DNA of 17,752 nucleotides from contig JABLTI010000051.1 in the NCBI GenBank assembly GCA_013166835.1, positions 1 through 17,752 on the forward strand, in the 5' to 3' direction. This DNA comes from Promethearchaeati archaeon (GTDB lineage: Archaea > Asgardarchaeota > Heimdallarchaeia > JABLTI01). Below the pieces are notes generated by a model that worked only from the letters and a program-made list of their open reading frames with translations, searched no databases and was not told where the DNA came from. Positions within the stretch are counted from its first letter, which is position 1; the number at the start of each line of letters is the position of its first letter. Below are positions 190 through 16,590 of this stretch, piece by piece. The position numbers and the translations under genes are program-made.

Positions 190-213
190 GATGCTCAGGA
201 CTCACACTTCTTT
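190..213 (+). repeat. Junction repeat R1 (short, core only)
   Basis: GATGCTCAGGACTCACACTTCTTT. Confidence 0.9.
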
Positions 214-229
214 TAGAGGAGTAAAATCA

Positions 230-1066
230 TCAAGAATTTCTTTTTTTTCTTTTAAAAGCTTTCGAGAAATCAATTTCTTCTGGAAGATGTAAAACTCGAC
301 CTTCCATGCCACCTGCAATGGTAATGATCTCACCAGAAATATGACCTGATAATTTGTCTGATGCCAATACTGCAATCATATTTGCAATATCTTCTGATTC
401 GGCAATCTTTTTCAAGGGAACAGTTTTCAAAATATGTTTTATACCTTCTTCGTCGTCAAGATATTTTTCTGACATTGGAGAGACAGTCCACCCGGGACAA
501 ACGGCATTAACTCGCCCTAATCTTGCCACATTGATAATCTCATTTTTTAGGCTTCTAGTTAAGCCATAACTTATGGCAGCTTTTGCTGCAGCATAATCAG
601 CATGACCTGCCGCTCCAAAAACAGCAGAAGTAGAGCCTACAATAATAATACTAGCAGACTCACCATCATATTTTCGAAGTTGTTGTATAAAAGAACGACA
701 ACATAGGAAGACACTATCAAGGTCTATTGCCATGGTATGTTTCCATCTCTCCAAAGTCATTTTTTCAATTTCACTGTAGTCTTCCGGCCAGATGGCTGCA
801 TTACAAATAAGGATATCAATTCGACCTTTTTTCTTCTCAATTTCCTTAAACATTTCAAGAACTTGAGATTCACTCGAGAGATCAGCTTTAATACTAAAAG
901 TCTTCTTGCCTAATTCATTAGTTAATTTCTTAGCTCTAGTTTCACTACTATTGTAATGAACTATAACATCAACACCTTCTGCAGCAAGTAACCGAGCGGT
1001 AGCTGCACCAATACCACCTGAAGCACCAGTTATGAGTGCCACTTTTCCTTCAAGTTCTAAATCCAT
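230..1066 (-). CDS. Short-chain dehydrogenase/reductase (SDR, FabG-like)
   Basis: TGASGGIG Rossmann motif, YAAAK catalytic YxxxK, RVNAVCPG; 278 aa. Confidence 0.93.
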   Translation of the reverse strand: MDLELEGKVALITGASGGIGAATARLLAAEGVDVIVHYNSSETRAKKLTNELGKKTFSIKADLSSESQVLEMFKEIEKKKGRIDILICNAAIWPEDYSEIEKMTLERWKHTMAIDLDSVFLCCRSFIQQLRKYDGESASIIIVGSTSAVFGAAGHADYAAAKAAISYGLTRSLKNEIINVARLGRVNAVCPGWTVSPMSEKYLDDEEGIKHILKTVPLKKIAESEDIANMIAVLASDKLSGHISGEIITIAGGMEGRVLHLPEEIDFSKAFKRKKRNS

Positions 1067-1152
1067 CTCTATCGATTTTTATATGATTTAACCGAGTAAT
1101 TAGTTTTGGCATTGATTGTTTTAGTTAAAGAAATTTAAAAACGATAAATTAG

Positions 1153-1258
1153 TTGATGCTCAGGACTCACACTTCTTCTTGCCGGGTTAGCAGTCCGGTT
1201 CGGGAAGGACACGCGGAAGTGGGAAGAACCTGCTAGCTGAGCATCCCGCTGAAGACTC
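1153..1258 (+). repeat. Junction repeat R2 (full length, structured)
   Basis: TTGATGCTCAGGACTCACACTTCTTCTTGCCGGGTTAGCAGTCCGGTTCGGGAAGGACACGCGGAAGTGGGAAGAACCTGCTAGCTGAGCATCCCGCTGAAGACTC; perfect inverted repeat GATGCTCAG (1155-1163) / CTGAGCATC (1237-1245). Confidence 0.95.
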
Positions 1259-1384
1259 AACGAGCATACCACATACATTTTAACTGATCATACAAGAGAA
1301 CAGTTCTTTTACTAATTAAAATTTATATTAAGAAAACTCAACTAAAATTATATGAACTCTAGAAAAAATAAGGAAAGATAAGCT

Positions 1385-2167
1385 TTATCTACGTTTTATG
1401 ATTATTCTTATCCCTCCGATGACTACACCAGCAAATATCACAGCTCCAATTACTATGAGAACTATGACAAATAGTTTAATGGGGGGACTAGTTGCCAATG
1501 TTAAAGTTCCATATGTTTCTACGAATCCAGGAGCACCATCTTGGGGTACTTCCCAGCCACAAAGGTAAGTTGCTGCGCTAAACATTACTCTGATAGCACT
1601 GTTTTCTGTACCCACTGGAAGGGTGTTATTTAATTCTGTTGCGGTCGAGCTTCCATCATAGGAGTCATCAAAGGTTATACTAATGACTACTTCTATTATG
1701 GTGTGATGTGTTTCTTTATGAGGAGATGCACCAAATCCAATAGCCCATTCTGCAAAATCATTTCCTGGATTTGTATTACCAGGATCATGATCGCGGTCTA
1801 AAAACATAGTTAGGTTTTCATCAATAACTTCATCCCAATTAGCATCAAAGAACACCCAAAGATGGTCATCTACTTCTGAAGTGTTGTCGGGGAGATCATC
1901 AAATAGGAGGAAAAGTTTGCTATCAGTGTTTTTAATGTATATGTGGATAAAATCTGGGTCATGTCCGGGTGAGGGATCAGTATGGTTAAAAGATATATGT
2001 CTGGCATCTGCCCACTCATCCTCAGTAAAGGTGCCATCGATATCTGGTATAACCTTAGCCCAACGACTATCCATATAAGTAATTTGAGATTGAGTTGTGG
2101 TAGCTTCTAAAGCTCCCATTATAAAGAATAATAATAAAAACAGTGAAATTAACCTTCTTAGTTTCAA
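1385..2167 (-). CDS. Secreted, C-terminally anchored protein with a DOMON/CBM9-like domain
   Basis: TTG start after GTGGTG; N-terminal signal peptide; PDIDG...DEWADA motif; acidic body; C-terminal TM helix plus IIKRR. Confidence 0.65.
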   Translation of the reverse strand: MKLRRLISLFLLLFFIMGALEATTTQSQITYMDSRWAKVIPDIDGTFTEDEWADARHISFNHTDPSPGHDPDFIHIYIKNTDSKLFLLFDDLPDNTSEVDDHLWVFFDANWDEVIDENLTMFLDRDHDPGNTNPGNDFAEWAIGFGASPHKETHHTIIEVVISITFDDSYDGSSTATELNNTLPVGTENSAIRVMFSAATYLCGWEVPQDGAPGFVETYGTLTLATSPPIKLFVIVLIVIGAVIFAGVVIGGIRIIIKRR

Positions 2168-2301: not shown

Positions 2302-2349
2302 TTGATGCTTAGAACTCACAATTCATCTTTACAGCTAGTAGTTCGGTTC
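2302..2349 (+). repeat. Junction repeat R3 (degenerate, truncated)
   Basis: TTGATGCTTAGAACTCACAATTCATCTTTACAGCTAGTAGTTCGGTTC aligns to the first ~49 nt of the consensus. Confidence 0.8.
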
Positions 2350-2425
2350 AGTATGGAGTTAGTTCTTTAATTTAAAAGGAAAATTAGATTTTTCAGAATG
2401 AAAATAAATGACTTATTGATTATTT

Positions 2426-2887
2426 CTAAATCAAAACCCTAAGCTTGCATCTACTATTTCCCTTTGTTACAGTTTCCTCAAGAATAACTTCAACAGGTTT
2501 TTCTATTGCTGTTTCAAGAAGTTCTTTCACCCAACCTCGAGAGCAATTACAGAATGTAGGTGAAATCTTACCTGCGGGGATTTTGTTAATTACTGGGCAG
2601 TAACATTTATCCCATATAAATGCAACCTCTTCCTTTGTTATCTGTAAGCTGTCATATATTTTGCTTAATTTTCCAAGAAATTCTTTCATATCATTCGAAT
2701 TCTTATATAGGCTTTTAGCATCCTGGATGAGTTTCTTGTGTCTATCATGTATACACTTTCGTCCACATTCTTCTAGTAAGAGTATCTTTTTCTCAGGATC
2801 CAGGTGTTTATCAAATCCATCCATTAAATTAATCATCATTTTTTCGCATCGTTCCAAGAATTTAACACCTAAGAGTTTTTTATTCAT
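2426..2887 (-). CDS. Cys-rich DUF6144-like protein (V4R-like, probably metal-binding)
   Basis: CGRKC, CYCP, FCNCSRGW and a terminal Cys; 153 aa. Confidence 0.65.
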   Translation of the reverse strand: MNKKLLGVKFLERCEKMMINLMDGFDKHLDPEKKILLLEECGRKCIHDRHKKLIQDAKSLYKNSNDMKEFLGKLSKIYDSLQITKEEVAFIWDKCYCPVINKIPAGKISPTFCNCSRGWVKELLETAIEKPVEVILEETVTKGNSRCKLRVLI

Positions 2888-2953: not shown

Positions 2954-4120
2954 TTATCGCTGAAAATTGATGCATTCGCCCACACTTCTTCTTGAAGGTC
3001 TAGCAGTCCGTTTCTTTAAAGATAAAATGACTATGAAAATAAATGAGAAAAACACCAAGGAATAATTAAATCCTGGAATAGTTCTTGTAGTAGTTTCTAT
3101 TTGAAGTATTTCTAAACCATCTTCTCGATCTGCAACAAATAGAAGGTTATCCTTTACAAAGATTTTTTTTGCATGTCCACCATCAAAGTAACGGCCAATT
3201 TTATCTGGAATGACAGGATCGGAAAGATCAAGAGCTATTACCCCCCTATTGTAATCAGCAATGAAGGCAAAACTACTATTGAAGCTAATAGAATGCATAT
3301 TCCCGCCATCATCGAACTCACCAACTTTCACAATATTAGTTGGATCAGTTATGTTTAGTATTTGTATTTCTCCTCCATTCAAATAGTGATTTCCTACAAA
3401 AATATAATTTTCATAGATTTTCGGATCCCAGAAATCAGTTTCAGCAACTATGTGTGTTGATAATTGTTGAGGTGAGCTCGGATTTGAGATGTTAAGAAGT
3501 CTTATACTAGTATAATCATTTCTATGATCAGTTACACATGCTAAATCTCCCTTAATATCGAGTTGCATACAATTAAGGTAATTATAATTATATCGTACTA
3601 GCTTAACAGGACTCTCCGGATTTGTAACATTAAAAATCTCTAATCCATAATCCCAATTAGCAACAAATAATAAATCATCTTTAATCTCAACATCACTAGA
3701 ATAGGTATTTACCGGATATTGGTAGATTTCTTCAGGATGCGCTAAATCTGAAACGTTTATGATTTCCAAACCATCAGGACCATCTGCAACAAAAGCTAAG
3801 TCATCTTTAACCACAAGCTCCATAGCAGAACCACCATCAAATAAAGAAGCTAATTTAACAGGATTTGTAGGATCAGAAACATCTATGATAACCAACCCCC
3901 CAGGATTATTATCAGTAGTATCTAATACAAAAGCTATATCTCCCTGTAAAAAAACATTCATAGTTTCTCCATTGGTATCTATAGAACCTATTTCTGTGAA
4001 ATCTATCTGTATGTTTATCCTAGAACCATTAATTGCAGGAATGTTAAGGGAAAAGAAAATTATTATTACAACGATCATTTGACTAGTATTCTTCATAATG
4101 TTAGCTCTCAAATAACTCAA
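2954..4120 (-). CDS. LVIVD-repeat beta-propeller surface protein with a PGF-like C-terminal anchor; start may be ATG 4096
   Basis: Repeats GLVIIDVSDP, GLEIINVSD, GLEIFNVTNP, IQILNITDP, GVIALDLSDP; N-terminal signal; TTTRTIPGF-TM-KKR tail. Confidence 0.88.
   Translation of the reverse strand: MSYLRANIMKNTSQMIVVIIIFFSLNIPAINGSRINIQIDFTEIGSIDTNGETMNVFLQGDIAFVLDTTDNNPGGLVIIDVSDPTNPVKLASLFDGGSAMELVVKDDLAFVADGPDGLEIINVSDLAHPEEIYQYPVNTYSSDVEIKDDLLFVANWDYGLEIFNVTNPESPVKLVRYNYNYLNCMQLDIKGDLACVTDHRNDYTSIRLLNISNPSSPQQLSTHIVAETDFWDPKIYENYIFVGNHYLNGGEIQILNITDPTNIVKVGEFDDGGNMHSISFNSSFAFIADYNRGVIALDLSDPVIPDKIGRYFDGGHAKKIFVKDNLLFVADREDGLEILQIETTTRTIPGFNYSLVFFSFIFIVILSLKKRTARPSRRSVGECINFQR
2967..3014 (+). 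repeat. Junction repeat R4 (truncated; lies inside the 3' end of the LVIVD ORF)
   Basis: TTGATGCATTCGCCCACACTTCTTCTTGAAGGTCTAGCAGTCCGTTTC. Confidence 0.9.
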
Positions 4121-4238: not shown

Positions 4239-4268
4239 TTGATGCTCAGGACTCACACATCTTCTTTT
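4239..4268 (+). repeat. Junction repeat R5 (core only)
   Basis: TTGATGCTCAGGACTCACACATCTTCTTTT. Confidence 0.92.
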
Positions 4269-4330: not shown

Positions 4331-5467
4331 ATGAAAGTTGTTGTTTTAGGAGCAGGATATACAGGAAATGTTATTGCAAGAGATCTAGTAGAAGATCCCT
4401 CTACTGAGGTTTCAATAGTTGATATTAACCAAGAAGTTTTAGATAAACTAACACAGGATTATGATCTTCAAGGAATATGTGCAGATTTATCCAATCCCAA
4501 TATCATCAAAGATATTGTGAAGGATTTTGATTTAGTAATTGGAGCTCTTCCTAGTTTTATGGGTTATAAGTCTCTTGAAGCAGTAATTGAAGCAGGAAAG
4601 AACATGGTAGATATCTCATATTACGAGGGAGATGCGTTAAGCTTAGATGAAATAGCAAAGGAGAAAGGAGTTACAGCTGTTGTTGACTGTGGAGTAGCTC
4701 CTGGTTCAAGTAACATCATACTTGGGTATATTGATTCAATTTTAGATAAAACAGAAAGTTTCCTATGTTATGTTGGGGGATTACCGGTAGAAAGGAACTG
4801 GCTTTTTGATTATAAATCACCTTATCCACCTATTGAGGTAATCGAGGAATACATCCTATTAGCGAGATATATTGAGAATAATGAAGTAGTCGTTAAACCA
4901 GCATTATCTGAACTTGAACTATTAGATTTTCCAGAAGTAGGAACTCTTGTAGCCATCAATACCGATGGTCTTAGAACTCTCATCAAGACAATGGATATCC
5001 CTTTCATGAAAGAAAAAACACTAAGATATCCTGATCATATAGAAAAGATGCGAATGCTAATAGAAGCAGGATTCCTTATTACAGAGGAAATTGATGTAAA
5101 AGGAAAAATGATCAAACCAATTGAGTTAACATCTAGACTTCTATTTGATCATTGGATGTTTGAAGAAGGAGATGAAGATCATACTATTATGAAGATAGTT
5201 ATTGAAGGAATGAAAGATGACAAGAAACTACGTTATACCTATGATATGTATGATAAGTACGATAGAGAGAAGGGTATATTATCTATAGCAAGAACAACCG
5301 GATATACTTGTACAGCTGTTGCACAAATTATTCTTGAAGGAAAATTCAAAGAAAAAGGAATTATTCCTCCGGAACTATTAGGAAAACATTCAGAAGTCTA
5401 TCACCAAGTTATTGAATACTTACGGAAGAGAAATGTGATATTTAAGGAGACTATCGAAGAACTGTAA
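4331..5467 (+). CDS. Saccharopine dehydrogenase / lysine 6-dehydrogenase family oxidoreductase
   Basis: VVVLGAGYTG NAD-binding motif, MVDISY, DCGVAPG, YVGGLP, EKTLRYP, ARTTGY; GAGG RBS. Confidence 0.9.
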   Translation: MKVVVLGAGYTGNVIARDLVEDPSTEVSIVDINQEVLDKLTQDYDLQGICADLSNPNIIKDIVKDFDLVIGALPSFMGYKSLEAVIEAGKNMVDISYYEGDALSLDEIAKEKGVTAVVDCGVAPGSSNIILGYIDSILDKTESFLCYVGGLPVERNWLFDYKSPYPPIEVIEEYILLARYIENNEVVVKPALSELELLDFPEVGTLVAINTDGLRTLIKTMDIPFMKEKTLRYPDHIEKMRMLIEAGFLITEEIDVKGKMIKPIELTSRLLFDHWMFEEGDEDHTIMKIVIEGMKDDKKLRYTYDMYDKYDREKGILSIARTTGYTCTAVAQIILEGKFKEKGIIPPELLGKHSEVYHQVIEYLRKRNVIFKETIEEL

Positions 5468-5589: not shown

Positions 5590-5687
5590 ATGATTAGACC
5601 CACACTTCTTCTTTCCGGGCTAGCAGTCCGTTTCGGGAAGGACACGCTGAAGTGGGAAGTACCTGCTAGCTGAGCAACTCACCCGAA
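5590..5687 (+). repeat. Junction repeat R6 (near full length, left arm diverged)
   Basis: ...GACCCACACTTCTTCTTTCCGGGCTAGCAGTCCGTTTCGGGAAGGACACGCTGAAGTGGGAAGTACCTGCTAGCTGAGCAACTCACCCGAAG. Confidence 0.95.
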
Positions 5688-5709
5688 GGAATTAAAATAG
5701 CTTATGAAA

Positions 5710-7383
5710 CTATAATCCAGATGTATTTACAATGAAAATTGCATAGCCAATAAAACAAACAAGAATAGAAAATAACACAATTATTAACCTAAAAACTATA
5801 ATGAAATAATCCCTTTTAGCCCATAATTGCTTTTCTAATTTTCTTAATTCCTTTCTTTTGCCTATTTTCTCTTCTAATTCATCTCTAGATTCTACATACA
5901 AATTAATCTGTGTAAGTACTCCTTTACGTGTAGTACAAATTTCTGTTAGAAAGATTGCAGCAAATGCTAATCCTACAAGAGGTGCAAGAATTCGATAAAA
6001 CCACATTAGATTAGATTCTTGATTATCTAACACATAACCAAGAACAGTTACTGCTGTAGAACCAATTGATGTTAAAAATGATTTTGTAATTTCTTGAGTT
6101 ACTTTGGTAGTTGCTTTTGTGACATCAGTTACAATTGTTCTAAGAGATTTTTCAATAAATTCAGTTGATTTTTTCAGATCTGCTATTTTTCCTTCTATCA
6201 AATTTCTCTTGAATACACTATATTGGGTAATTAATTCTTCATAAAAATCGTATAGTTTATTTAGATGACGAAATTCTGTTTTCTGGAGTTTTTCTATACT
6301 GTAATTTCTTATTTCTCTTTCAGTTCCTATTCCAGAAAAATAACCCATATTAACGAATCTAGTTACTATTTCGATAATTTTCTCTTTTGTGTATTCATAT
6401 GAATTATCCTCTTTTTTTAGATCACCAACGATTAAACTACCAGATATTTCATTATGTATGAAGTTTAATCTTTGTTTTGGATTATAAACAAAAGAGAGTT
6501 CAAATTCATTTTTATCTTCTGATATTATTGACACCTTTTCTGAGATTATGGAATATATTGTATACATGATTATTCTTGAATATGAAAGCCAATATTTTTC
6601 GGTAAGTTCATCTATCTTAATATTCTCAAAAGCAATAGGAAATATTGGTGTATTTTCAACAAATTCAGTTTCAATTTTATAGTTACTTAATAAATCCTTT
6701 ACTAAATCAACTTTTATCTTATTTTTATTTAGATCTTTAGTATTTTCTGCTATTTTATCCAATGAGATAATTTCAAAGAAATTAGAAAAATATATGTTAT
6801 TATTTGGAACTATTATAGCTACAATTTTACCTTTTTCAATCAGATTTTCGCTTAAGTCTAATAAGTTAGCACTTTTCATATAACCATTAAATTTATCAAG
6901 ACTACTCCAAAAACATAATTTATAAGCTTCAGACAAATCGTATTGATCGTGAATATAATTACTAATTCTTATTTTCCTGATTATAAGGAATAAATTTGTT
7001 AAACTATGTGTTTTAGAATTTAGGATTTCTTTCTTTATTTCTTCTTGAAGTTTTTTAAAAATTTCTTTTTTTGAAATATCAACATCTTTTACACTCATTA
7101 GTTTTGGAATTTTAGATGCAAATAATTTAATATCTTCAGTACGTGTTATTTCAAAGTTCTCTTTTACTTGAAGTGTAAATTCATTTTTAGTTTCTTTGTT
7201 CTTTAAACTGATTCCTAATGTGAATTCTAAATAGTCGATCTTTTCATTAAGATTAACCCAAAAATCATGTTTCAAAAGGAGCTCTTTATTCTCGGTTAAA
7301 TCTAAATCTATTGATCTGAAAGTCTCCTCATACTTCAACTTTTGTTTTTCAATAAACGAAAGTATTTTTGGAATTTCAACCAA
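5710..7383 (-). CDS. Hypothetical protein, large soluble region plus ~3 C-terminal TM helices and coiled coil
   Basis: 557-aa ORF; TTG start after GAGGTG; hydrophobic segments only in the last ~125 aa; 37 nt downstream of the co-oriented 302-aa gene. Confidence 0.8.
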   Translation of the reverse strand: MVEIPKILSFIEKQKLKYEETFRSIDLDLTENKELLLKHDFWVNLNEKIDYLEFTLGISLKNKETKNEFTLQVKENFEITRTEDIKLFASKIPKLMSVKDVDISKKEIFKKLQEEIKKEILNSKTHSLTNLFLIIRKIRISNYIHDQYDLSEAYKLCFWSSLDKFNGYMKSANLLDLSENLIEKGKIVAIIVPNNNIYFSNFFEIISLDKIAENTKDLNKNKIKVDLVKDLLSNYKIETEFVENTPIFPIAFENIKIDELTEKYWLSYSRIIMYTIYSIISEKVSIISEDKNEFELSFVYNPKQRLNFIHNEISGSLIVGDLKKEDNSYEYTKEKIIEIVTRFVNMGYFSGIGTEREIRNYSIEKLQKTEFRHLNKLYDFYEELITQYSVFKRNLIEGKIADLKKSTEFIEKSLRTIVTDVTKATTKVTQEITKSFLTSIGSTAVTVLGYVLDNQESNLMWFYRILAPLVGLAFAAIFLTEICTTRKGVLTQINLYVESRDELEEKIGKRKELRKLEKQLWAKRDYFIIVFRLIIVLFSILVCFIGYAIFIVNTSGL

Positions 7384-7420
7384 ATCTACACCTCATCTTT
7401 ATATTAATTAAATATGAAAT

Positions 7421-9289: not shown

Positions 9290-10627
9290 CTATATTTTCT
9301 CTACTTTAGAGATTTCCATACGAGTAAATAATAGGAAGGAAGCTAATAAGGATACACCATAAATTAGCTGACTAAGAATGTTTACACTAGGGTGGATATT
9401 ATTAAAGTTGGTAGTCATAAAAGGCAAAAATAAGATAAGAATCATTCCAAGTAAGAAACAAGCAATTACTATTTGTAAAATTAATTCATATTTTTGTAAT
9501 TTTTGTTTTTTTATAGCAAATTTATATCCTAACACAATGGTCATACTACCTAAGGGGGCAATAATAAATTCAGCTAATCCGATTGGTATAAGTAGATATT
9601 TCCCAATAGTCTGTATAATTTCCCAATAATGTCTTTCCAAATCTTCAAATTGATCGTTAATGATACCTCTGAAATTCCTTGTAACTCTTTTTTTCCACCA
9701 ATCAGATAGTTTTCTTCTTTTTCCTTTGAAATCTTTAGGTGCAAGATTCACCTCAGGATTGCGGATTTTCTTTACAGAAGGTATTATATAGAAAGATAGA
9801 ACGCTAATTACTGACATGACACCTTTATAGTATTTATTAGCTATGATACGCTCAAAAGTATCTAAAACTAGATAAAAAGTATTAGTCTCAACTCCACTTC
9901 CTAGGTTAATGATAAGTATTGCTTTTACGATAACCGCGATGGTTAATAAAACTCCAACAATAGTCATTAGATAAATAGGGATTATCATTATTAACTTAAA
10001 TCGCTGGGGGTATATTTCTTCCTGGGTATCAATTATTCTTTCTTCAAATTTACTTCGATGTTTATCTATTTCTTTCTGCAGATCTTCTTTCTTGTTTTGG
10101 ATCTCTTGTTGAAATTCCTTCTTCTCTTTTAGTAATTTCTCTTTTTCATTGGCATTTTTTCTTAACTCTATTTCTTTCTGTTCAGAGGATAAGGAAGATT
10201 TCTCGTCATTCAAAAGCTGATGGTTATCTTCAAGTTTACTTTCTTTTTCTTCGAAAATCCTCTTTTGTTTCTCTTCCTTTAATTTTAATTTTTCCAATTC
10301 CTTTTCAATAGCTTTTATCTTTTTTTGACTATAGGGTTTTTTCTTTGAAGTCTTTGTAAGCCAGTTAATGATTTTTTGAGCAATAGGTATATAGCCTATT
10401 ATAAAACCAAATCCACTCATAATTTGAGTGAAGAATGAAAATATTAGCATTGGATAAAAGATTAACCCTAAGAAATTACCATCAAAAACTGATACAAAAA
10501 CAATTGTTACAACTAGAATCAATGTACCAACTGCAAATGCAAAATAGTATTTTTTATCAATTAAAGCTAATGGGTGTTTGTTTTTATTTTGCATCTCTTT
10601 TACCCCTTTTACATAATGATATTTCAT
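9290..10627 (-). CDS. Hypothetical multi-pass membrane protein with a ~100-aa coiled-coil insert; start may be ATG 10594
   Basis: Two N-terminal TM segments, K/E/Q-rich helical stretch, then ~5 more hydrophobic segments. Confidence 0.75.
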   Translation of the reverse strand: MKYHYVKGVKEMQNKNKHPLALIDKKYYFAFAVGTLILVVTIVFVSVFDGNFLGLIFYPMLIFSFFTQIMSGFGFIIGYIPIAQKIINWLTKTSKKKPYSQKKIKAIEKELEKLKLKEEKQKRIFEEKESKLEDNHQLLNDEKSSLSSEQKEIELRKNANEKEKLLKEKKEFQQEIQNKKEDLQKEIDKHRSKFEERIIDTQEEIYPQRFKLIMIIPIYLMTIVGVLLTIAVIVKAILIINLGSGVETNTFYLVLDTFERIIANKYYKGVMSVISVLSFYIIPSVKKIRNPEVNLAPKDFKGKRRKLSDWWKKRVTRNFRGIINDQFEDLERHYWEIIQTIGKYLLIPIGLAEFIIAPLGSMTIVLGYKFAIKKQKLQKYELILQIVIACFLLGMILILFLPFMTTNFNNIHPSVNILSQLIYGVSLLASFLLFTRMEISKVEKI

Positions 10628-10688
10628 TTATCTGTTTTCTTGTTAAGAAAAGGACATCTTTAATGCCAAAAAATCAACTACAATTAAG

Positions 10689-10795
10689 TTTATACTCAGG
10701 TCTCACACTTCCTCTTTAAGGGCTAGAAGTCCATTTTGGTAATAACACGCTTAAGTGGTAAGTATCTGCTGGCTGAGCATCTCGCCCGAAAACTC
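10689..10795 (+). repeat. Junction repeat R10 (full length, diverged)
   Basis: TTTATACTCAGGTCTCACACTTCCTCTTTAAGGGCTAGAAGTCCATTTTGGTAATAACACGCTTAAGTGGTAAGTATCTGCTGGCTGAGCATCTCGCCCGAAAACTC. Confidence 0.92.
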
Positions 10796-10958
10796 GTTAA
10801 AACTATTACTTACTATCAATAAAGGTTTAAATCAGAAAAGACAAAATTGTTTATTTGCCATGATTATTGGATTAGAAACTAGAAGCTCTTAACAAAAGCA
10901 TTTACATAGATGATAATCTCAATTACACTAAGAATTAATAAAATACACGAGGAATTAC

Positions 10959-12221
10959 ATGGTAATCACAATTTTAACAGGTGGTACAAGAGGAGACACT
11001 CAACCATACATTGCTCTCGGGTTGGCCTTGAAAAAAGAAGGATATAAGATCCGTATTGCGACATTTGAAAATTATGAATCCTTTGTGAAAAACTATGGTT
11101 TGGATTTTTATCCAATAAAAGGAGATGTCAAAGAGGTTGCTACAAGCAATATCATGGATAGTGCTATGCAAGCTGATAATCCTCTCAAGTTTATTTTCAG
11201 TTTTAGAAAGCTAAGATCACTTGTTTTTAATTTACAAGATGATTTTTACAATGCGTGTCAAGGCTCAGAAGCAATTGTTTATCATCCAGGAGTTACAATG
11301 GGATTTTTCGCTGCGCAACAACTTAGAATTCCAAGTATTTTAGCGATTCCTTTTCCAATGACTCCAACAACAGAATTTCCATCAATAATCTTTTATAATA
11401 GACCAAGTTTAGGAAAACAATACAATCGATTAACACATGAATTAATCGAAAGAACAATGTGGTTTGGTTCTAAAGCAGCAGTTAGGCGATTCTGGAAAAA
11501 GAAATTTGGCAGACGACCAAAAAACTTTCGAAATCCATTCAAAAAACAAACCACAAAGGATTTCCCAACAATAGTTTCTTGTAGTCAACATGTTTTTCCA
11601 AAACCAAAAGATTGGTCAGAACATGTCCATAATACCGGATATTGGTTTTTAGATGAAGAAAAAGATTGGAAAGCATCTAAGGAATTACAAGCATTCTTAA
11701 AAGCAGGTAATCCTCCCATTTACGTTGGATTTGGTAGTGTTAAAGATGCAAAAACAGCTGTAAAAACATCGAATATAGTAATAGACGCTTTAAAACGCAA
11801 TAACATGCGAGGAATTTTAGCAACTGGCTGGAAGAGTATGATGATGGATAATGATAATCAAGAAGATTTTTTCATTCTAGAGAGTGTTCCACATTCATGG
11901 TTATTCCCTCAAATGGCTGCGGTAGTTCATCATGGAGGTGCAGGAACAACAGGAGCAACTCTAAGAGCAGGAATTCCCAATATTATTATCCCATATAGTA
12001 ATGATCAATTTGGTTGGGGTCGACGGATATTTGAACTTGGTGTGGGGCCAAAACTAATTCCTAGAAAGAAACTTACGACAGAGAAATTGGCAAAAGCAAT
12101 TAAGCTTTCTCAGTCTAAAGAAATAATAGATGCAGCTAATCAATTAGGAATAAAAATAGATAAAGAGAATGGAGCTAAGAAAGCTGCAAAAATAATAAGC
12201 AGTACATTAAACAATAATTGA
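10959..12221 (+). CDS. GT1 glycosyltransferase (sterol 3-beta-glucosyltransferase-like)
   Basis: GTRGDTQPYIALG, YVGFGS, VPHSWLFPQMAAVVHHGGAGTT, DQFGWG; GAGG RBS. Confidence 0.92.
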   Translation: MVITILTGGTRGDTQPYIALGLALKKEGYKIRIATFENYESFVKNYGLDFYPIKGDVKEVATSNIMDSAMQADNPLKFIFSFRKLRSLVFNLQDDFYNACQGSEAIVYHPGVTMGFFAAQQLRIPSILAIPFPMTPTTEFPSIIFYNRPSLGKQYNRLTHELIERTMWFGSKAAVRRFWKKKFGRRPKNFRNPFKKQTTKDFPTIVSCSQHVFPKPKDWSEHVHNTGYWFLDEEKDWKASKELQAFLKAGNPPIYVGFGSVKDAKTAVKTSNIVIDALKRNNMRGILATGWKSMMMDNDNQEDFFILESVPHSWLFPQMAAVVHHGGAGTTGATLRAGIPNIIIPYSNDQFGWGRRIFELGVGPKLIPRKKLTTEKLAKAIKLSQSKEIIDAANQLGIKIDKENGAKKAAKIISSTLNNN

Positions 12222-12247
12222 TGCTCATGACTCACACTTCTTCTTTT
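12218..12247 (+). repeat. Junction repeat R11 (core only; supplies the glycosyltransferase stop codon)
   Basis: TTGATGCTCATGACTCACACTTCTTCTTTT; TGA at 12219-12221. Confidence 0.92.
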
Positions 12248-12377: not shown

Positions 12378-13712
12378 GTGAATCTGCTGAAAAACATAAA
12401 TTTGGTGCAATATTTGGAACAAACAAGGCTAGAAAATAACACTAGAATAAATAATGAAAAGAGAATTGAAGAATTGGGTGAAAGTAAAGGGAAAACCATT
12501 TTTTCGATAATTTTTGTTGGATTTTTAACACTGCTAACTATTACTGCCGTAACACTATTACATTCAAATCAACAAGAATTTATTTTAGATCGATTTGTAG
12601 GGATTAGTAAATTTGAGTTTTCGTTATTTGATTCTACTGTATATGTTGCTTATTTCTTAACTGGAATCGTAATTAGTGTTTTATCTGGCAAACTTGCTAA
12701 AAGAAAAATCTTCATTGTTATTGGTAGTATTGGTGCAGCTTTATTTTTCTACTTAATGACTTTAACAGTAAATTATTTCTTGTTATTATTCTTGAGGTTT
12801 CTTCAAGGATGCTTTTCAATTATAGTTTGGCAAACTCTCATGACCATTGTCCTGGATTTATCAACTCCAAATGATCGTGGTAGAAATATGGGCATATTTG
12901 GCATTCTACTGGCATTAGGTATGGGATCGGGACCATTTTTAGGGGGATTTATAGCAGATGTCGGAGTTTTTATTCCTTATTATGTTGCTTCTGGATTAAT
13001 GATTCTTGTTTTGTTTTTGTCACTCTTTCTAAAAGAACCTACTAGTCTTAAAGGAGGAGTAACTGTAAAAGAAAGCCTAAACATTTTGAAAAGTGACCCA
13101 AAAATTATAGTTCCAAGTTTGTTCAATTTCATTGATCGATTGCATATGGGATTCATTATTTTTGCTTTGCCATTAATTATCGGGTTAGATACTTCTGAAG
13201 GAGGATTAGCATTAGAACCAAGATTTAGAGGAATGGCATTTGGTATCTTTGCCTTACCTTACATTTTATTGCAATATCCTTTTGGAAAACTCTCAGATAA
13301 AATAGGTCGATACCCTCAATTGCTAATTGGGAGTATTTGTTATGGGATAGTGTTAAGCTTTGTAGGATATTTCGGAGGAGAATCATTTGGAGTACTATTA
13401 ACAATACTAGTATTCTTAGGACTATTTTCAGGGGTGACCTCTCCACCATCTATGGCTTTAGTGGGAGATAGTTTAAATGATACAAAGAAAAATAGCGCAG
13501 CAATGGGCATTTTCACACTTTTAGGGAATATCGGAATAGCATTAGGACCAGTTATTGCTGGTTCAATGTTACAACTTGGTTTTGGATTAACTTTCTTAGT
13601 GGCAGGAATAATAGAAGTTTTCTTTTTGATAGTAAATATAATTCTGATTCGATTTGTTTTCAAAGAGAAATTATTTAGAAAAAATGACTTAAAACCCACA
13701 CTTCTTCTTTAA
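12378..13712 (+). CDS. MFS transporter; true start probably downstream (e.g. TTG 12474)
   Basis: ~12 TM helices; motif A variants SGKLAKRK and GKLSDKIGR; RFLQG; GPFLGG. Confidence 0.9.
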   Translation: MNLLKNINLVQYLEQTRLENNTRINNEKRIEELGESKGKTIFSIIFVGFLTLLTITAVTLLHSNQQEFILDRFVGISKFEFSLFDSTVYVAYFLTGIVISVLSGKLAKRKIFIVIGSIGAALFFYLMTLTVNYFLLLFLRFLQGCFSIIVWQTLMTIVLDLSTPNDRGRNMGIFGILLALGMGSGPFLGGFIADVGVFIPYYVASGLMILVLFLSLFLKEPTSLKGGVTVKESLNILKSDPKIIVPSLFNFIDRLHMGFIIFALPLIIGLDTSEGGLALEPRFRGMAFGIFALPYILLQYPFGKLSDKIGRYPQLLIGSICYGIVLSFVGYFGGESFGVLLTILVFLGLFSGVTSPPSMALVGDSLNDTKKNSAAMGIFTLLGNIGIALGPVIAGSMLQLGFGLTFLVAGIIEVFFLIVNIILIRFVFKEKLFRKNDLKPTLLL

Positions 13713-13760
13713 GGGCTAGCAGTCCGGGGCGGGAAGGACACGCATAAGATTGGGTAGAAC
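13684..13760 (+). repeat. Junction repeat R12 (overlaps the MFS 3' end and supplies its stop)
   Basis: ACCCACACTTCTTCTTTAAGGGCTAGCAGTCCGGGGCGGGAAGGACACGC to 13743, then a degenerate match to ~13760. Confidence 0.92.
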
Positions 13761-13823
13761 AGATTTTAGAGTGGGAATTTAGTTTAAATACTAATAAAGT
13801 ATAATAAATAATGAGGATACAAT

Positions 13824-14060
13824 ATGACAATTGAAAAGAAAAAAATAACCATCTTAATTGAAAAGGATCAAGATGGTATCCTTATTGCATCTGCTCCAGA
13901 GTTACCTGGATGTTATACTCAAGCAAAAAGCTTGAATGAATTAATGAAGCGAATAGAAGAAGCAGTAGATTTGTATTTAAAAAGTGTTGATAAGGAATTT
14001 AGTGAAAATCTTCTGAAGGATTTTGTTGGGATACAATTTCTAGAGGTTCCTATCGGATGA
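13824..14060 (+). CDS. hicB: HicB-family antitoxin (short UPF0150 type)
   Basis: IEKDQDG...APELPGCYTQAKSLNELMKRIEEAVDLYL; ATGA overlap with the next gene. Confidence 0.9.
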   Translation: MTIEKKKITILIEKDQDGILIASAPELPGCYTQAKSLNELMKRIEEAVDLYLKSVDKEFSENLLKDFVGIQFLEVPIG

Positions 14061-14284
14061 AACTCAGACCTCTTGCAGCTCGAAAAGTAATCAAAGTATT
14101 AACTAAAGTTGGTTTTGTAATTGTTAGAAAGAAAGGCAGTCATGTTATCTTGAAACATCAAGATGGACGATTAATTGTGGTGCCAGATCATAAAGGAGAA
14201 GAGATAAGCAAAGGTCTTTTATTAAAAATAATCAAAGATTCCAAATTATCCAAAGATGAATTCTATAAGTTGGCAGAAAAATAG
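14057..14284 (+). CDS. hicA: HicA-family mRNA interferase toxin
   Basis: GFVIVRKKGSHVILKH...VVPDH...GLLLKIIK; basic 75-aa protein. Confidence 0.93.
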   Translation: MKLRPLAARKVIKVLTKVGFVIVRKKGSHVILKHQDGRLIVVPDHKGEEISKGLLLKIIKDSKLSKDEFYKLAEK

Positions 14285-14328
14285 ACGCATTAGTTTTGTA
14301 ATCAATTTAGTAAGTTCTAACAACAAAA

Positions 14329-14368
14329 ATGCTCAGGACTCACACTTCTTCTTTAAGGGTTAGAAGTC
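14329..14368 (+). repeat. Junction repeat R13 (truncated)
   Basis: ATGCTCAGGACTCACACTTCTTCTTTAAGGGTTAGAAGTC. Confidence 0.93.
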
Positions 14369-14585
14369 ATTATTTATTTTAGAATTAATTTGAAAATAAT
14401 TTCTTGGAATTAGAAACAGCTATTGGCTTAAGCTCCAATTCCACATTTTTATTTTTGTAATATTTTTAACTCTAAATTTTCATTGGGAAAAAGTGATAGG
14501 TGTGATTTTTTAGCAAGAAAAAATGCATTTTAACAAAATTGTTATTACAAGTGATTTTGTTAATTGTTAATAAGAGAGGAATAAA

Positions 14586-16535
14586 TTGAATAAAAAATCA
14601 ATATTCTTCTTACTCTTCCTCATAATTATTGTTGGATTAGTAATAGCTACTCCTATTATCCTTTTTAATATTAAATTTAAGACAAGTATTTCCTTGCCAT
14701 CTCCTGATATTAATGGAGAAATGCTATTAGAAGATGCTCTTTTGATCGTTAATCAAACACCGTCTTTCCTACCTATTGAACAGTTATCACTACAAACACT
14801 CAGCCAATTATTATGGTCTATGCAAGGGATTACTCATGGACAGAAACGAACTACTCCATCTGCAGGAGCATTGTATCCGTTAGAATTGTACATTTATGCT
14901 TTTGACATAGAAAATTTGCCTGTTGCTCTTTACCACTATACACCAAAAGGGCATGGCATCAATCTCATTCAAGAAAAGAATATCTCGAGAAGCTATGTAG
15001 CTGATTCATTGCTTCCAATTAATAATGACCTTAATCAGGCTCAAGCTTTGGTTTTCATATCAATTGTTCCAGAACGCACAACAACAAAATATGGATCGAG
15101 GGGGATACAGTACATACAACTCGAGATTGGGCATGTTCTAGGCAATCTATACCTTCAAGCTGTAACAACTGATGTTCATGTTGAACCTATTTTTCAATAC
15201 AATCAAACAAAAATTCAGGAGGAATTTGAAATAGAGGAAGAGATCGCAGTTATTATTCCATTAATTAAGTGTGCTTCATATGAATCGACAATCATGCCAG
15301 AATTGCTTCAAGAAAACCTGTTAGAGAATAATATCGAAACAAATGGTTTAACTGTAGAACAGGCTATTTACATAAGACAATCAATTCGAAACTACGAACA
15401 GCAAGACATTACCTTATCAGCATTGAAACGATTATTTTGGTTTACTTTTGCCAATAAAACAAGATGGTTATCAAGTGCAACAAAACCAATTACTTTCACT
15501 GCAGTTTCAGCAGTTTACCTGTTTTTGGTTACTAGTGATAAAACAGAAGACCTAGAAAAAGGGATTTATGAGCTTTCTAGTGAGGAATTCAATATCACAT
15601 CATTCAAGTTAGGAGAATATATTTCAGATCTTTATGAAGCTGGTTTATCTCAAAGCATGATTAATACAGCAGCATTTAATACCATATTTTTGTTAAACAC
15701 GACTTTACTTCGAGAACATCTTATCGAAGACTACATACCCCTTGGTATGTATGAAGTTGGTATGATATCTCAATTTCTATATTTGGAATCAAGAAATCTT
15801 AACCTTGGAATGGTTGTAGTGGGAGCATTTTATGATTTTCAAGTAACAAAACTTTTAGATGATATTATTTCCCAACCTGTTTATATTATCCCTATTGGCG
15901 TATCAGAATTAGGAGATATTGATTTCAGACTATATACTATAAGTAAATATTCTCTAAGTAAAACTTTTGGCATTTTAACTTTGGTTCTATTCTATTTTTC
16001 ATGCTTTATGGCAACTAATACAATAAAAAACAGGTTTAGGAAGAATTGGTTAAGGATACACCACATTTTCTCCTCGGGATTTTCAATATTATTTCTTTTA
16101 ACTCATTTCATTCTAATAATCGATGTATTATCTTTCTTTCAAAGCTCCCAGACCGGATATGCATTTCTTGAAATGCTAAAGAAAATAATAGGCTATAATT
16201 TAGCTCCTATTGATTCTCTCTACAAAGTTGGCCTTTTAACGTCAATAATTGCTTTATGGCTGATAATTCTATTGAATGTTCTCCCATATGTTCTGCTTAA
16301 GATCAAGAAAATCTCAATAAAAACAAGGAGAGTAATTCATCAAGTTTTAATTGGTGTAATATTGTTATGCAGCTACATTCATGTTTATGCTAATTGTTTA
16401 AGCAGTTCATTGTATTATTGGTTATTTTTCACAGGAAACCTAGGCATTATTCTTTTATACTTAGGTTTGCACTACCATCGATCATTTACTAGTTTATGGA
16501 AAAATAAAGGTGTAGAAAACATAACTACTGAATAA
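14586..16535 (+). CDS. Membrane protein: tandem SagB/ThcOx-type nitroreductase domains plus a ferric-reductase-like (cytochrome b) TM domain
   Basis: N-terminal TM; RTTPSAGALYPLELY, KYGSRG, EIGHVLGNLYLQA; second domain RQSIRNY...LNLGMVVVGAF...YIIPIG; C-terminal TMs with two H-x13-H pairs. Confidence 0.8.
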   Translation: MNKKSIFFLLFLIIIVGLVIATPIILFNIKFKTSISLPSPDINGEMLLEDALLIVNQTPSFLPIEQLSLQTLSQLLWSMQGITHGQKRTTPSAGALYPLELYIYAFDIENLPVALYHYTPKGHGINLIQEKNISRSYVADSLLPINNDLNQAQALVFISIVPERTTTKYGSRGIQYIQLEIGHVLGNLYLQAVTTDVHVEPIFQYNQTKIQEEFEIEEEIAVIIPLIKCASYESTIMPELLQENLLENNIETNGLTVEQAIYIRQSIRNYEQQDITLSALKRLFWFTFANKTRWLSSATKPITFTAVSAVYLFLVTSDKTEDLEKGIYELSSEEFNITSFKLGEYISDLYEAGLSQSMINTAAFNTIFLLNTTLLREHLIEDYIPLGMYEVGMISQFLYLESRNLNLGMVVVGAFYDFQVTKLLDDIISQPVYIIPIGVSELGDIDFRLYTISKYSLSKTFGILTLVLFYFSCFMATNTIKNRFRKNWLRIHHIFSSGFSILFLLTHFILIIDVLSFFQSSQTGYAFLEMLKKIIGYNLAPIDSLYKVGLLTSIIALWLIILLNVLPYVLLKIKKISIKTRRVIHQVLIGVILLCSYIHVYANCLSSSLYYWLFFTGNLGIILLYLGLHYHRSFTSLWKNKGVENITTE

Positions 16536-16557
16536 TTCCCAACTAGAAAAACATGCA

Positions 16558-16590
16558 GCTCAGGACTCACACTGCTTCTTTACGGACCAG
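16558..16590 (+). repeat. Junction repeat R14 (short)
   Basis: GCTCAGGACTCACACTGCTTCTTTACGGACCAG. Confidence 0.88.

What the first reader, a model, noticed from the sequence alone, without database searches (positions are those of the whole stretch)
190..16590. Integron-like gene-cassette array delimited by a non-attC repeat
Seen: 14 copies of one repeat family (starts 190, 1153, 2302, 2967, 4239, 5590, 8419, 8496, 9147, 10689, 12218, 13684, 14329, 16558), all on the + strand; I noticed no reverse copy. All 13 junctions between transcription units carry a copy. The only two gene junctions without one are inside gene pairs (302 aa/557 aa and hicB/hicA). Each interval holds one gene, one pair, or nothing, and neighbours are functionally unrelated. 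Known: integron arrays and CALINs have this one-site-per-gene layout, but their attC sites run RYYYAAC...GTTRRRY, which this repeat does not. Inference: an undescribed gene capture/shuffling platform whose recombinase lies outside the window.
Basis: partly seen in the sequence, partly recalled or inferred. Interest (0 to 1): 0.92.

Follow-up and report, generated by a model that had tools for sequence, protein, structure and literature searches.

The report
Gene cassettes separated by 23S rRNA tails
In this Asgard archaeon, unrelated genes are strung together like integron cassettes, and every separator is a partial copy of the tail end of the large ribosomal RNA gene, which points to a so far undescribed way of capturing and shuffling genes.

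Summary
The window has 14 copies of one repeat, all on the + strand, at every junction between transcription units.

The repeat has a clear origin. It is the reverse complement of the last 70 nt or less of the 23S rRNA gene plus about 45 nt of its 3' trailer, the strand of the pre-23S processing stem.

In three independent contigs of the same genus, a 23S gene runs straight into such an array, co-oriented with it. In the own draft genome the repeat sits on only 6 of 260 contigs. It was found in 10 of 10 genomes of the genus and 0 of 30 from other genera.

A second family of the same class has arrays built from its own, different 23S tail.

Cassettes are shuffled between species: neighbours were conserved in 3 comparisons and different in 101. 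One public metagenome holds two window cassettes in the opposite order, joined inside the shared core CCCACACTTCTTCTT.

No canonical attC and no IntI were found. No tyrosine recombinase lay on any array contig checked. No Y1 or Cas1 association was seen.

Best reading: serial Campbell-type insertion of circular cassettes at the 23S trailer core, by an unidentified enzyme or by short homology. This is a new variant of integron-like and RNA-gene-island platforms.

The parts
190..214 (+). Repeat copy R1. Minimal: arm plus core only (profile positions 3-27).
   Evidence: nhmmer, (E 2e-3); the repeat finder family D1. A homologous SDR cassette in C141 has the same junction.
230..1066 (-). Cassette gene: short-chain dehydrogenase (278 aa).
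   Evidence: Pfam adh_short_C2, 2.6e-50. Homologous cassettes occur in C141, G005 and G003 with different neighbours.
1154..1260 (+). Repeat copy R2. Full length: antisense of the 23S 3' end plus trailer.
   Evidence: nhmmer E 6.4e-29. 79.5% identical over 122 nt to the antisense of the 23S 3' end of G005.
1385..2167 (-). Cassette gene, 260 aa, no Pfam family.
2303..2357 (+). Repeat copy R3 (positions 2-57).
2426..2887 (-). Cassette gene: DUF6144 (153 aa).
   Evidence: Homologous cassettes in G005 and G002 lie in other contexts.
2969..3022 (+). Repeat copy R4 (positions 3-57). Its inner part travels with the LVIVD cassette in run X19.
2954..4120 (-). Cassette gene: LVIVD-repeat protein (388 aa). 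The open frame runs on through R4.
4240..4267 (+). Repeat copy R5. Minimal: arm plus core.
   Evidence: In X19 a different inner part follows this core (loose end behind 4266).
4331..5467 (+). Cassette gene: saccharopine dehydrogenase-like (378 aa).
5596..5688 (+). Repeat copy R6. Diverged arm, long inner part. It forms the left half of the X19 hybrid junction.
   Evidence: The shared 15-mer CCCACACTTCTTCTT lies at 5599-5613 and at 2979-2993.
5710..8329 (-). Two-gene cassette (557 aa and 302 aa, no Pfam family).
8420..8459 (+). Repeat copy R7.
8497..8538 (+). Repeat copy R8. The interval between R7 and R8 is empty.
8672..9037 (+). Cassette gene: DUF3795 (121 aa).
9147..9187 (+). Repeat copy R9.
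9290..10627 (-). Cassette gene: membrane protein (445 aa) with a weak Mem_trans match below the cut-off.
10692..10796 (+). Repeat copy R10. Full length and closest to a real 23S end.
   Evidence: 88.9% identical over 108 nt to the G005 23S antisense. In run X5 a contig runs on from here into 23S-like sequence (loose end behind 10796).
10959..12221 (+). Cassette gene: glycosyltransferase (420 aa).
12219..12246 (+). Repeat copy R11. Minimal.
12378..13712 (+). Cassette gene: MFS transporter (444 aa).
13688..13761 (+). Repeat copy R12. Diverged arm.
13824..14284 (+). Two-gene cassette: hicB-like antitoxin and hicA toxin.
14329..14368 (+). Repeat copy R13.
14586..16535 (+). Cassette gene: nitroreductase-domain protein (649 aa).
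16558..16590 (+). Repeat copy R14.
16685..17752 (+). Cassette gene: aldo/keto reductase with a Fer4 domain. It runs off the contig end.

Best explanation
What it is. The window is one piece of a cassette array of at least 60 kb in a Heimdallarchaeota (Asgard) genome. The array is spread over contigs C133, C141+C215, C217 and C112.

The separators are partial copies, 25-125 nt long, of the end of the 23S rRNA locus, read antisense on the window's + strand. Each has three parts:
- An 'arm' of about 15 nt, TTGATGCTCAGGACT. This is the far end of the 3' trailer, which in real 23S loci can pair with TTGATGC in the 5' leader.
- A core, CACACTTCTTCTT. This is the trailer strand of the processing-stem helix, and the leader carries CACACTTCTTC.
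- An inner part of variable length, 0 to about 95 nt. It comprises the rest of the trailer and then the last nucleotides of the 23S itself.

Proposed mechanism (inferred). A circular cassette carries its own copy of this region and recombines with the chromosomal 23S trailer inside the invariant core, Campbell fashion. The 23S gene receives the cassette's trailer end. The previous trailer copy is pushed outward. Repeated rounds build a co-oriented array that starts at the 23S gene. Recombination between any two cores excises or reorders cassettes.

Shown: the origin of the repeat, the position and polarity of arrays, the modular linkage of the inner part to one neighbouring cassette, the shuffling between species, and one population-level reordering with its junction in the core.

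Inferred: the circular intermediate, the direction of growth, and the catalyst. The catalyst would be an unidentified trans-acting site-specific enzyme or short-homology recombination.
For: 1. Identity of the repeat.
- In G005:C98 the archaeal LSU rRNA model matches L007:13489-17770 (+). The terminal repeat copy, 17711 to about 17820 (-), overlaps its 3' end.
- Leader and trailer of three 23S loci pair through CACACTTCTTC/GAAGAAGTGTG and TTGATGC/GCATCAA.

2. Arrays start at the 23S gene.
- A 23S gene runs straight into an array in G005:C98 and in metagenome contigs L103 and L098. These were the only 2 of 12 loci scanned with an LSU match.
- In G006 the contig ends exactly at the core.

3. Clustering and polarity.
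- 34 of 34 genome-wide nhmmer hits lie on 6 of 260 contigs.
- 167 copies in 39 loci show no locus with mixed strands.
- 112 copies in 35 metagenome loci show one inverted copy.

4. Distribution.
- The repeat was found in 10 of 10 genomes of the genus and 0 of 30 other genomes of the class.
- A second family has arrays of its own 23S tail. G021 has 21 co-oriented hits over 84 kb. G033, G019 and G017 have 7, 4 and 2 extra copies.

5. Mobility.
- For homologous cassettes in different genomes, neighbours were conserved in 3 comparisons, different in 101 and not scorable in 14.
- Homology between shared cassettes begins at about profile position 12-15 of the left repeat and stops before the next repeat.
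- The inner end of the left repeat agrees within 10 positions in 26 of 33 pairs, against 8 of 33 for the right repeat.
- Identity over 14 nt of the inner part is 0.69 on the left against 0.53 on the right, Wilcoxon p = 0.008.

6. Population variant. Run X19, from another study, has a 1473-nt contig at depth 181. It joins window 5432-5614 to 2995-4266, with 183 nt on the shorter side. This puts the saccharopine dehydrogenase cassette before the LVIVD cassette, with the switch inside the shared 15-mer.

7. Arms are alleles of real trailer ends. The type GTAGAATCTACGNCC+CTCGCTTCTTCTT is the trailer next to the complete 23S gene of G008.

8. Cargo is typical accessory material: toxin-antitoxin pairs, transporters, enzymes, and a Piwi/SMODS block.
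Against: - No recombinase is linked to any array. There are 0 PF00589 matches on array contigs in 11 genomes of the genus or on G021:C12. There are 0 serine recombinases on array contigs in the 5 genomes searched.
- IntI scores 20.6 bits against a cut-off of 265. Y1_Tnp was found in 0 of 6 g1 genomes and 1 of 15 g4 genomes. Cas1 was found in 2 of 5 (other than G000) and 1 of 15.
- The predicted linkage of the arm to the cassette on its other side is not seen. Arm class agrees in 22 of 33 pairs on the right and 20 of 33 on the left. Arm identity is 0.53 on both sides.
- The core shows no dyad symmetry typical of tyrosine-recombinase sites (my reading of the sequence).
- Not every 23S gene is followed by an array. 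G009 has none in the 6.1 kb up to its contig end.
- In G021 the array begins at a detached 23S 3' fragment, model positions 2831-2987 only, and not at a complete gene.
- No circular cassette was observed. Only assembled contigs of public runs could be laid, not raw reads.
- The 23S gene of the window's own genome is not assembled.
Confidence: 0.62

Rival explanations
1. The same array architecture is built and reshuffled without a dedicated recombinase. Circular or linear DNA carrying a 23S-tail copy enters by the host's homologous or microhomology-mediated recombination. The 23S tail serves as a landing pad because it is conserved across the genus.
For: - No recombinase of five tested families is associated with arrays.
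- The same architecture occurs in two families whose repeats have unrelated sequences. That fits a mechanism needing homology only, not a fixed sequence.
- Many copies share 60-110 nt of similarity.
- The two parents of the X19 junction also share imperfect homology beyond the core.
Against: - Many copies keep only about 25-28 nt, for example profile positions 12-37 or 2-29. That is little homology for recombination.
- All copies share the same 13-nt core, at 76-98% conservation per position (90% or more at 11 of 13 positions). Coverage falls off on both sides of it.
- Armless and alternative-arm copies begin sharply at the core.
- This route does not explain how a gene first acquires a 23S-tail copy.
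Confidence: 0.25
2. The copies are kept because they work as RNA or DNA signals for the cassettes, for instance processing, termination or decoy sites derived from the rRNA trailer. The array would then be shaped mainly by selection, not by a capture mechanism.
For: - In G021 the array copies carry two extra small hairpins that the adjacent 23S fragment lacks. One stem varies ACTAT/ATAGT to ACTCT/AGAGT on both sides.
- One arm type ends, in the rRNA sense, in a run of T. My own knowledge is that oligo-T tracts terminate archaeal transcription.
Against: - Cassette genes lie on both strands while all copies lie on one. Six cassettes are on the - strand and seven on the + strand in the window.
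- R2 does not fold better than shuffled sequence, z = -0.84.
- Rfam finds no family in the window.
- This reading does not explain the shuffling or the hybrid junction.
Confidence: 0.05
3. A REP/MITE-like dispersed repeat that happens to be dense here.
For: - One solitary copy lies in a housekeeping intergenic region between SRP54 and Rpb7.
- A two-copy locus lies inside a 173-kb contig of G008.
Against: - 34 of 34 genome-wide hits lie on 6 of 260 contigs.
- 278 of 279 copies are co-oriented within their locus.
- Gene order around them is not conserved.
- The sequence is the 23S tail.
Confidence: 0.03
4. A canonical integron or CALIN whose attC sites were not recognised, or an assembly or binning artefact.
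For: Archaeal integrons, mostly CALINs, are reported as enriched in Asgard MAGs (PMC9668308; passages read). The window comes from a draft MAG with 6.8% estimated contamination.
Against: - No R''/R' motif pair is present, no hairpin signal and no IntI.
- The repeat equals the genus' own 23S tail, and arrays are found in 10 of 10 genomes of the genus.
- Arrays also occur in 35 JGI metagenome stretches. Contigs of the four laid runs, each from a different study, bridge many window junctions (table 8).
Confidence: 0.03

Closest known systems
Integrons and CALINs, including archaeal integrons (PMC9668308; passages read)
   Same: One recombination site per cassette, with all sites co-oriented. Cassettes of one or two genes are functionally unrelated and include toxin-antitoxin pairs. 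Cassette order is shuffled between relatives. Each cassette carries most of its own site. Exchange happens in a short conserved stretch near one end of the site.
   Different: - The site is not an attC: no RYYYAAC...GTTRRRY pair and no hairpin signal.
- No IntI is present, and no attI next to an integrase gene.
- The primary site is the trailer of the 23S rRNA gene.
- Cassette genes face both ways.
Islands built by serial integration at tRNA or tmRNA genes, for example tycheposons of Prochlorococcus (bioRxiv 10.1101/2020.12.28.424599; passages read)
   Same: - The direct repeats are partial 3' ends of a stable RNA gene.
- The full gene sits at one end.
- New elements are thought to push older ones outward.
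- The result is a hypervariable island.
   Different: - The target is the 23S rRNA tail and processing stem, not a tRNA.
- Elements are 0.3-7 kb cassettes without an integrase or replication genes.
- There are dozens of units per array, not one or two.
pdif modules and other elements that exploit the host Xer recombinase (recalled from my own knowledge; no paper read here)
   Same: Gene modules without their own recombinase, bounded by short sites and reshuffled between replicons. The only tyrosine recombinase found in this genome is Xer-like.
   Different: The core shows no 11-6-11 inverted-repeat layout, and sites do not alternate in orientation. No link between the Xer-like protein and the site has been shown.
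Hypervariable region beside rRNA genes in SAR11 (PMC2217521; seen only in the search listing, the rest recalled)
   Same: A hypervariable gene region attached to the rRNA locus.
   Different: As I recall it, that region is a replacement island between conserved rRNA genes. I recall no array of repeated rRNA-tail copies between single cassettes.

Membership tests
Integron / CALIN | attC sites with R'' RYYYAAC and R' GTTRRRY boxes, 40-130 nt apart | tested here: not met
   0 motif pairs on both strands, against 3.2 expected from 200 shuffles.
Integron / CALIN | attC folds as an imperfect single-stranded hairpin | tested here: not met
   R2 folded as DNA gives -17.3 kcal/mol, z = -0.84, and 44 of 200 shuffles fold as well. 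The 9-bp pairing GATGCTCAG/CTGAGCATC is not kept in G009's 23S tail. Only one copy was folded.
Integron / CALIN | IntI-type integrase (not required for a CALIN) | tested here: not met
   TIGR02249 best match is 20.6 bits against a cut-off of 265 in the own genome, which is 84.75% complete.
Integron / CALIN | Co-oriented sites, one per cassette, with cassette order variable between relatives | tested here: met
RNA-gene-targeting integrative islands (tycheposon-like) | Direct repeats are partial 3' ends of a stable RNA gene, with the complete gene at one end of the island | tested here: met
   The repeat is the antisense of the 23S 3' end plus trailer. A 23S gene adjoins the array in G005:C98 and L103 (complete gene in both) and in L098, where the gene is cut by the contig end.
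RNA-gene-targeting integrative islands (tycheposon-like) | Each element, or at least some, encodes its integrase | tested here: not met
   0 PF00589 matches on array contigs in 11 genomes of the genus and on G021:C12. No PF00239 match on array contigs in 5 genomes.
REP / MITE | Copies dispersed genome-wide in both orientations in otherwise syntenic contexts | tested here: not met
   The repeat is on 6 of 260 contigs, 278 of 279 copies are co-oriented within their locus, and neighbours are conserved in only 3 of 104 scorable comparisons.
Casposon-type or other target-duplicating insertion | Only the short target is duplicated, and a Cas1-family integrase is present | tested here: not met
   Internal copies carry arms and inner parts beyond the core. 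Cas1 was found in 2 of 5 g1 genomes and 1 of 15 g4 genomes, never on the array contigs listed.
IS200/IS605-like (HUH Y1) elements | Y1 transposase in the genome | tested here: not met
   PF01797 was found in 0 of 6 g1 genomes and 1 of 15 g4 genomes.
Xer-exploiting modules (pdif / IMEX) | The site is a dif-like 28-bp unit bound by the host Xer | not testable with these tools
   A genus-specific Xer-like 352-aa tyrosine recombinase exists. Its site is unknown, and by eye the core has no dyad symmetry.

The most novel reading that the evidence does not exclude
Heimdallarchaeota carry a true functional analogue of the integron that evolved independently. Its primary insertion site is the processing stem of the 23S pre-rRNA, and its cassette sites are a self-propagating family derived from the 23S tail.

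It would be served either by a recombinase of an unknown family or by machinery tied to rRNA-locus biology. The core is the trailer strand of the stem that the archaeal splicing endonuclease pathway acts on. That the pathway acts on this stem rests on my own knowledge of archaeal rRNA maturation and on the listing and abstract of PMC8339473 only.

Because the core is essential and conserved, any cell of the genus would be a recipient. That would make the rRNA locus a universal dock for gene exchange in the archaeal lineage nearest to eukaryotes.
Probability: 0.3. Interest if true: 0.95.

Novelty: new variant of a known kind. Interest (0 to 1): 0.85.

Why it matters
If this is right, the tail of an rRNA gene serves as the docking site of a gene-capture array in Asgard archaea.

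- It would give a concrete and testable route for the heavy accessory-gene traffic seen in these genomes. The cargo found here includes toxin-antitoxin pairs, transporters, enzymes and a Piwi/SMODS block.
- It would explain why assemblies of these organisms break at the 23S gene, and why 23S genes are often missing from MAGs.
- It would add a third architecture beside integrons and tRNA-linked islands, one without a recognisable integrase. That makes the search for its enzyme a well-defined problem.
- The arms and inner parts of the copies look like a record of earlier trailer alleles. They could be used to trace cassette flow between species.

I found no description of this in seven full-text searches that ran, nor in the passages read from PMC8813620 and PMC9668308.

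Tried and rejected
- Structured RNA or tRNA origin of the repeat. ARAGORN found no tRNA in the window or in five array loci. Rfam at E <= 1 found nothing in the window and only four chance-level matches in five loci.
- Hairpin or attC reading: rejected.
- Recombinase next to the array. I examined the flanks of C141, C215 and C33, G005:C98, G008:C71, the regions upstream of three 23S genes and L103. None was found.
- Genes shared between G021's array and the g1 arrays. Of 17 best matches listed, 12 lie on the ABC ATPase gene of C141 or its counterparts; the other five were not annotated, and none was pursued as a recombinase lead.
- Synteny between G009's 23S-downstream flank and the far ends of arrays: none. 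The far ends of arrays still carry cassette genes.
- Viruses or plasmids carrying the site: 0 hits in viral contigs for two patterns.
- A real tRNA behind the tRNA-like empty site at the C33 locus: none among the 20 tRNAs that ARAGORN found.
- Arm linkage to the cassette on the other side: not supported.
- Cover gaps. Run X4 has no cover over 12433-13616, and run X19 none over several cassettes. I list this here only, because missing cover in contigs proves nothing. Several X19 joints with short sides (21-75 nt) lie inside repeats and were not used.
- The G021-derived profile found few copies in other g4 genomes. I then used each genome's own tail as the query.

Full report
**Observation.** The window is the whole of contig C133 of a draft genome with 260 contigs, 3.56 Mb, 33.7% G+C and 84.75% completeness. 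The ORF map and Pfam confirm the layout. A copy stands at every junction between transcription units. The only junctions without a copy lie inside two gene pairs. One interval is empty, and neighbours are functionally unrelated. No canonical attC motif pair is present: 0 observed against 3.2 expected. The longest copy does not fold better than shuffled sequence.

**What the repeat is.** The organism is an archaeon. Contig C33 carries SRP54 and an Rpb7-type subunit. Record titles of matching contigs read 'Candidatus Heimdallarchaeota archaeon' in 10 of 14 stretches; the other four are single matches in bacterial MAGs.

In a genome of the same genus, G005 contig C98, the Rfam archaeal LSU rRNA model matches L007:13489-17770 on the + strand. 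The last repeat copy, 17711 to about 17820 on the - strand, overlaps its 3' end. Window copies R2, R6 and R10 align to the antisense of that 23S end over 92-122 nt at 79.5-88.9% identity.

The 5' leader of three 23S loci carries CACACTTCTTC and, further upstream, TTGATGC. The trailer carries GAAGAAGTGTG and GCATCAA. The most conserved part of the repeat, the 'core' CACACTTCTTCTT, is therefore the trailer strand of the pre-23S processing stem. The sharp left edge of the repeat is the base of that stem. The variable right-hand part is the rest of the trailer and then the last nucleotides of the 23S itself.

**Where it occurs.**
- In the own genome, 34 of 34 nhmmer hits lie on 6 of 260 contigs. 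Matches to the 15-mer elsewhere have no flanking similarity.
- C141 and C215 overlap end to end, so they form one stretch.
- With a refined profile, 167 copies in 39 loci of ten genomes (nine of them array-bearing) show no locus with mixed strands.
- 112 copies in 35 JGI metagenome stretches show a single inverted copy.
- The repeat was found in 10 of 10 genomes of the genus and 0 of 30 other genomes of the class.
- A 23S gene runs directly into an array in G005:C98 and in two metagenome contigs, L103 and L098. These two were the only LSU matches among 12 loci scanned. In G006 the contig stops exactly at the core.
- Against this, G009's 23S has no further copy in the 6.1 kb up to its contig end. 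G008 has only one further copy within 7 kb. G008 also has a two-copy locus elsewhere, in a 173-kb contig.

**A second lineage.** I took the region downstream of the 23S in 19 genomes of the class and searched each with its own 23S tail. Fifteen had no extra copy, three had one, and G021 (another family) had nine in 20 kb. Over 90 kb, G021 has 21 co-oriented hits with a sharp outer edge. Three more genomes of that genus have 7, 4 and 2 extra copies. There the array begins at a detached 23S 3' fragment and not at a complete gene. The sequences of the two lineages' repeats are unrelated. Only their origin in the 23S tail is shared.

**Mobility.** I cut all loci at the repeats into 187 intervals and compared them. 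For homologous internal intervals in different genomes, the neighbouring interval was homologous in 3 comparisons, different in 101 and not scorable in 14.

Nucleotide alignments of 12 pairs, chosen by hand from the best-scoring ones, show where homology starts and stops. It starts at about profile position 12-15 of the left repeat, runs through the inner part and the genes, and stops before the next repeat.

I then took all 33 pairs that passed a score and length filter. Pairs with a score below 150 or a length ratio below 0.75 were dropped.
- The inner end of the left repeat agrees within 10 positions in 26 of 33 pairs. For the right repeat the figure is 8 of 33.
- In the 19 pairs where all four cores could be placed, the first 14 nt of the inner part are 0.69 identical on the left and 0.53 on the right, Wilcoxon p = 0.008.

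These pairs are not independent, so the p-value is only indicative. The inner part of a copy thus belongs to the cassette on one side.

The expected linkage of the arm to the cassette on the other side is not seen. Arm class agrees in 22 of 33 pairs on the right and 20 of 33 on the left, and arm identity is 0.53 on both sides.

**Arms.** Upstream of the core there are several recurrent arm types. One is TTGATGCTCAGGACT and its relatives. A second is (A/T)GTAGAATCACTGCA, present in at least 35 of 267 copies. A third is GTAGAATCTACGNCC, which always comes with the core variant CTCGCTTCTTCTT. This last type is the trailer next to G008's complete 23S gene. The arms are therefore alleles of real trailer ends. 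The first five core positions go with the arm, which places the exchange in CTTCTTCTT or just after it.

**Population evidence.** Twenty rows of public runs from 11 studies hold all or part of the first 10 kb of the window. All are sediment or subsurface metagenomes, and a few have no habitat on record. I laid four runs from four studies. All are assembled contigs, not raw reads.

In X19, a 1473-nt contig at depth 181 joins window 5432-5614 to 2995-4266. This puts the saccharopine dehydrogenase cassette before the LVIVD cassette, the reverse of the window order. The switch lies inside CCCACACTTCTTCTT, which the two parent copies share. Fifteen shared bases are shorter than the 31-letter words that the run index is built on (as stated in the tool description). 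I therefore take the join to be real and not a graph artefact; that is an inference. In the same run a different inner part follows the core of R5. Contigs of X4 and X5 bridge many junctions of the window as it stands (table 8), which argues against a chimeric contig.

**Mechanism.** The simplest model that fits is Campbell-type recombination. A circular cassette carries [inner part - core - arm] and recombines with the chromosomal 23S trailer. Insertion gives the 23S a new trailer end and displaces the old copy outward. Repetition builds a co-oriented array from the 23S gene. Core-by-core recombination excises or reorders units.

A pure target-duplication model is rejected, because internal copies carry arms and inner parts beyond the core.

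The catalyst is unknown.
- No PF00589 match lies on an array contig in 11 genomes of the genus or on G021's array contig.
- Serine recombinases, IntI, Y1 transposases and Cas1 are absent or not associated.
- The only tyrosine recombinase found in the own genome is a genus-specific 352-aa protein. Its best solved relatives are archaeal XerA proteins. This is a lead, not evidence.
- Homology-driven exchange without a dedicated enzyme remains a serious rival. The occurrence of the same architecture with unrelated sequences in two families favours it. The many copies of only about 25 nt and the sharp start at the core argue against it.

**A secondary site.** The lone copy on C33 lies between SRP54 and Rpb7. 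G002 has the empty site, a tRNA-3'-end-like stretch ending in ...CTCACACACCACTTCTT. G000 has an imperfect duplication of about 28 nt around a 45-nt insert that carries an inner part. This looks like an insertion at a core-like secondary site.

**Comparison and novelty.** The layout and behaviour are integron-like, and the repeat origin is like islands at tRNA genes. The defining features of both are missing: attC and IntI for integrons, and an integrase in the elements for the islands.

Archaeal integrons reported so far have canonical attC sites, and that paper's main text has no occurrence of 'rRNA' (PMC9668308; passages read). The paper on circular Heimdallarchaeum genomes describes an element between the 16S gene and a tRNA, but no 23S-tail arrays (PMC8813620; passages read). 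Seven full-text searches that ran gave no description of such arrays. Supplements were closed.

I rate this a new variant of a known kind, with high interest. The main open point is the enzyme.

Noticed in passing
L005 (G000:C33) 3236-3330, - strand: A solitary repeat copy lies between SRP54 and an Rpb7-type gene. It is an imperfect duplication of about 28 nt around a 45-nt insert carrying a 23S-tail inner part. G002 has the empty site, which resembles the 3' end of a tRNA (T-loop to CCA). G007 has a different insert of about 130 nt at the same place.
   Followed up: partly
L007 (G005:C98) 15718-16275: A LAGLIDADG homing-endonuclease ORF lies inside the 23S rRNA gene, which spans 4.3 kb for a 2987-position model. 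This indicates an rRNA intron. The 23S is not linked to a 16S gene within the 20 kb scanned.
   Followed up: no
L103 (metagenome contig) 4514-11322: A 6.8-kb multi-gene cassette directly downstream of a 23S gene carries a short Piwi-domain protein, Hypoth_Ymh, a SMODS nucleotidyltransferase and unknown genes. This looks like a defence block. The next cassette is a DUF433/DUF5615 pair.
   Followed up: partly
L098 (metagenome contig) 130-201: This is the only copy found in the opposite orientation to its array, 1 of 279. It lies at the far end of a dense array of very small intervals (350-900 nt) next to a 23S gene.
   Followed up: no
L006 (G000:C61) 6200-7258: A tyrosine recombinase of 352-360 aa, conserved at 64-89% identity in five genomes of the genus. 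G009 holds only a 58-aa fragment. Other families of the class show only catalytic-domain matches of about 25% identity. Its best solved relatives are archaeal XerA proteins. It is the only PF00589 match in this genome.
   Followed up: partly
window 2954-3022, 12219-12221 and 13688-13712: Several cassette ORFs end inside a repeat copy. The LVIVD frame reads through all of R4, the glycosyltransferase stops at the start of R11, and the MFS frame stops inside R12.
   Followed up: no
G021:C12 (loci L055, L059-L062): Array copies in this second lineage carry two small extra hairpins that the adjacent 23S fragment lacks. One stem changes on both sides (ACTAT/ATAGT to ACTCT/AGAGT). Two copies also lie upstream of the 23S fragment.
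   Followed up: partly
L010 (G008:C71) 10578-11480: A two-copy mini-array sits between a sulfotransferase and a glycosyltransferase inside a 173-kb contig, away from that genome's 23S gene on C95. Its left flank resembles the region upstream of the 23S in G006 and G005.
   Followed up: no
L001 (G000:C141) 15211-17692: An Imm5-like immunity protein gene lies beside a 656-aa HD-domain protein gene within the array. The HD-protein cassette recurs in G003 and G007.
   Followed up: no
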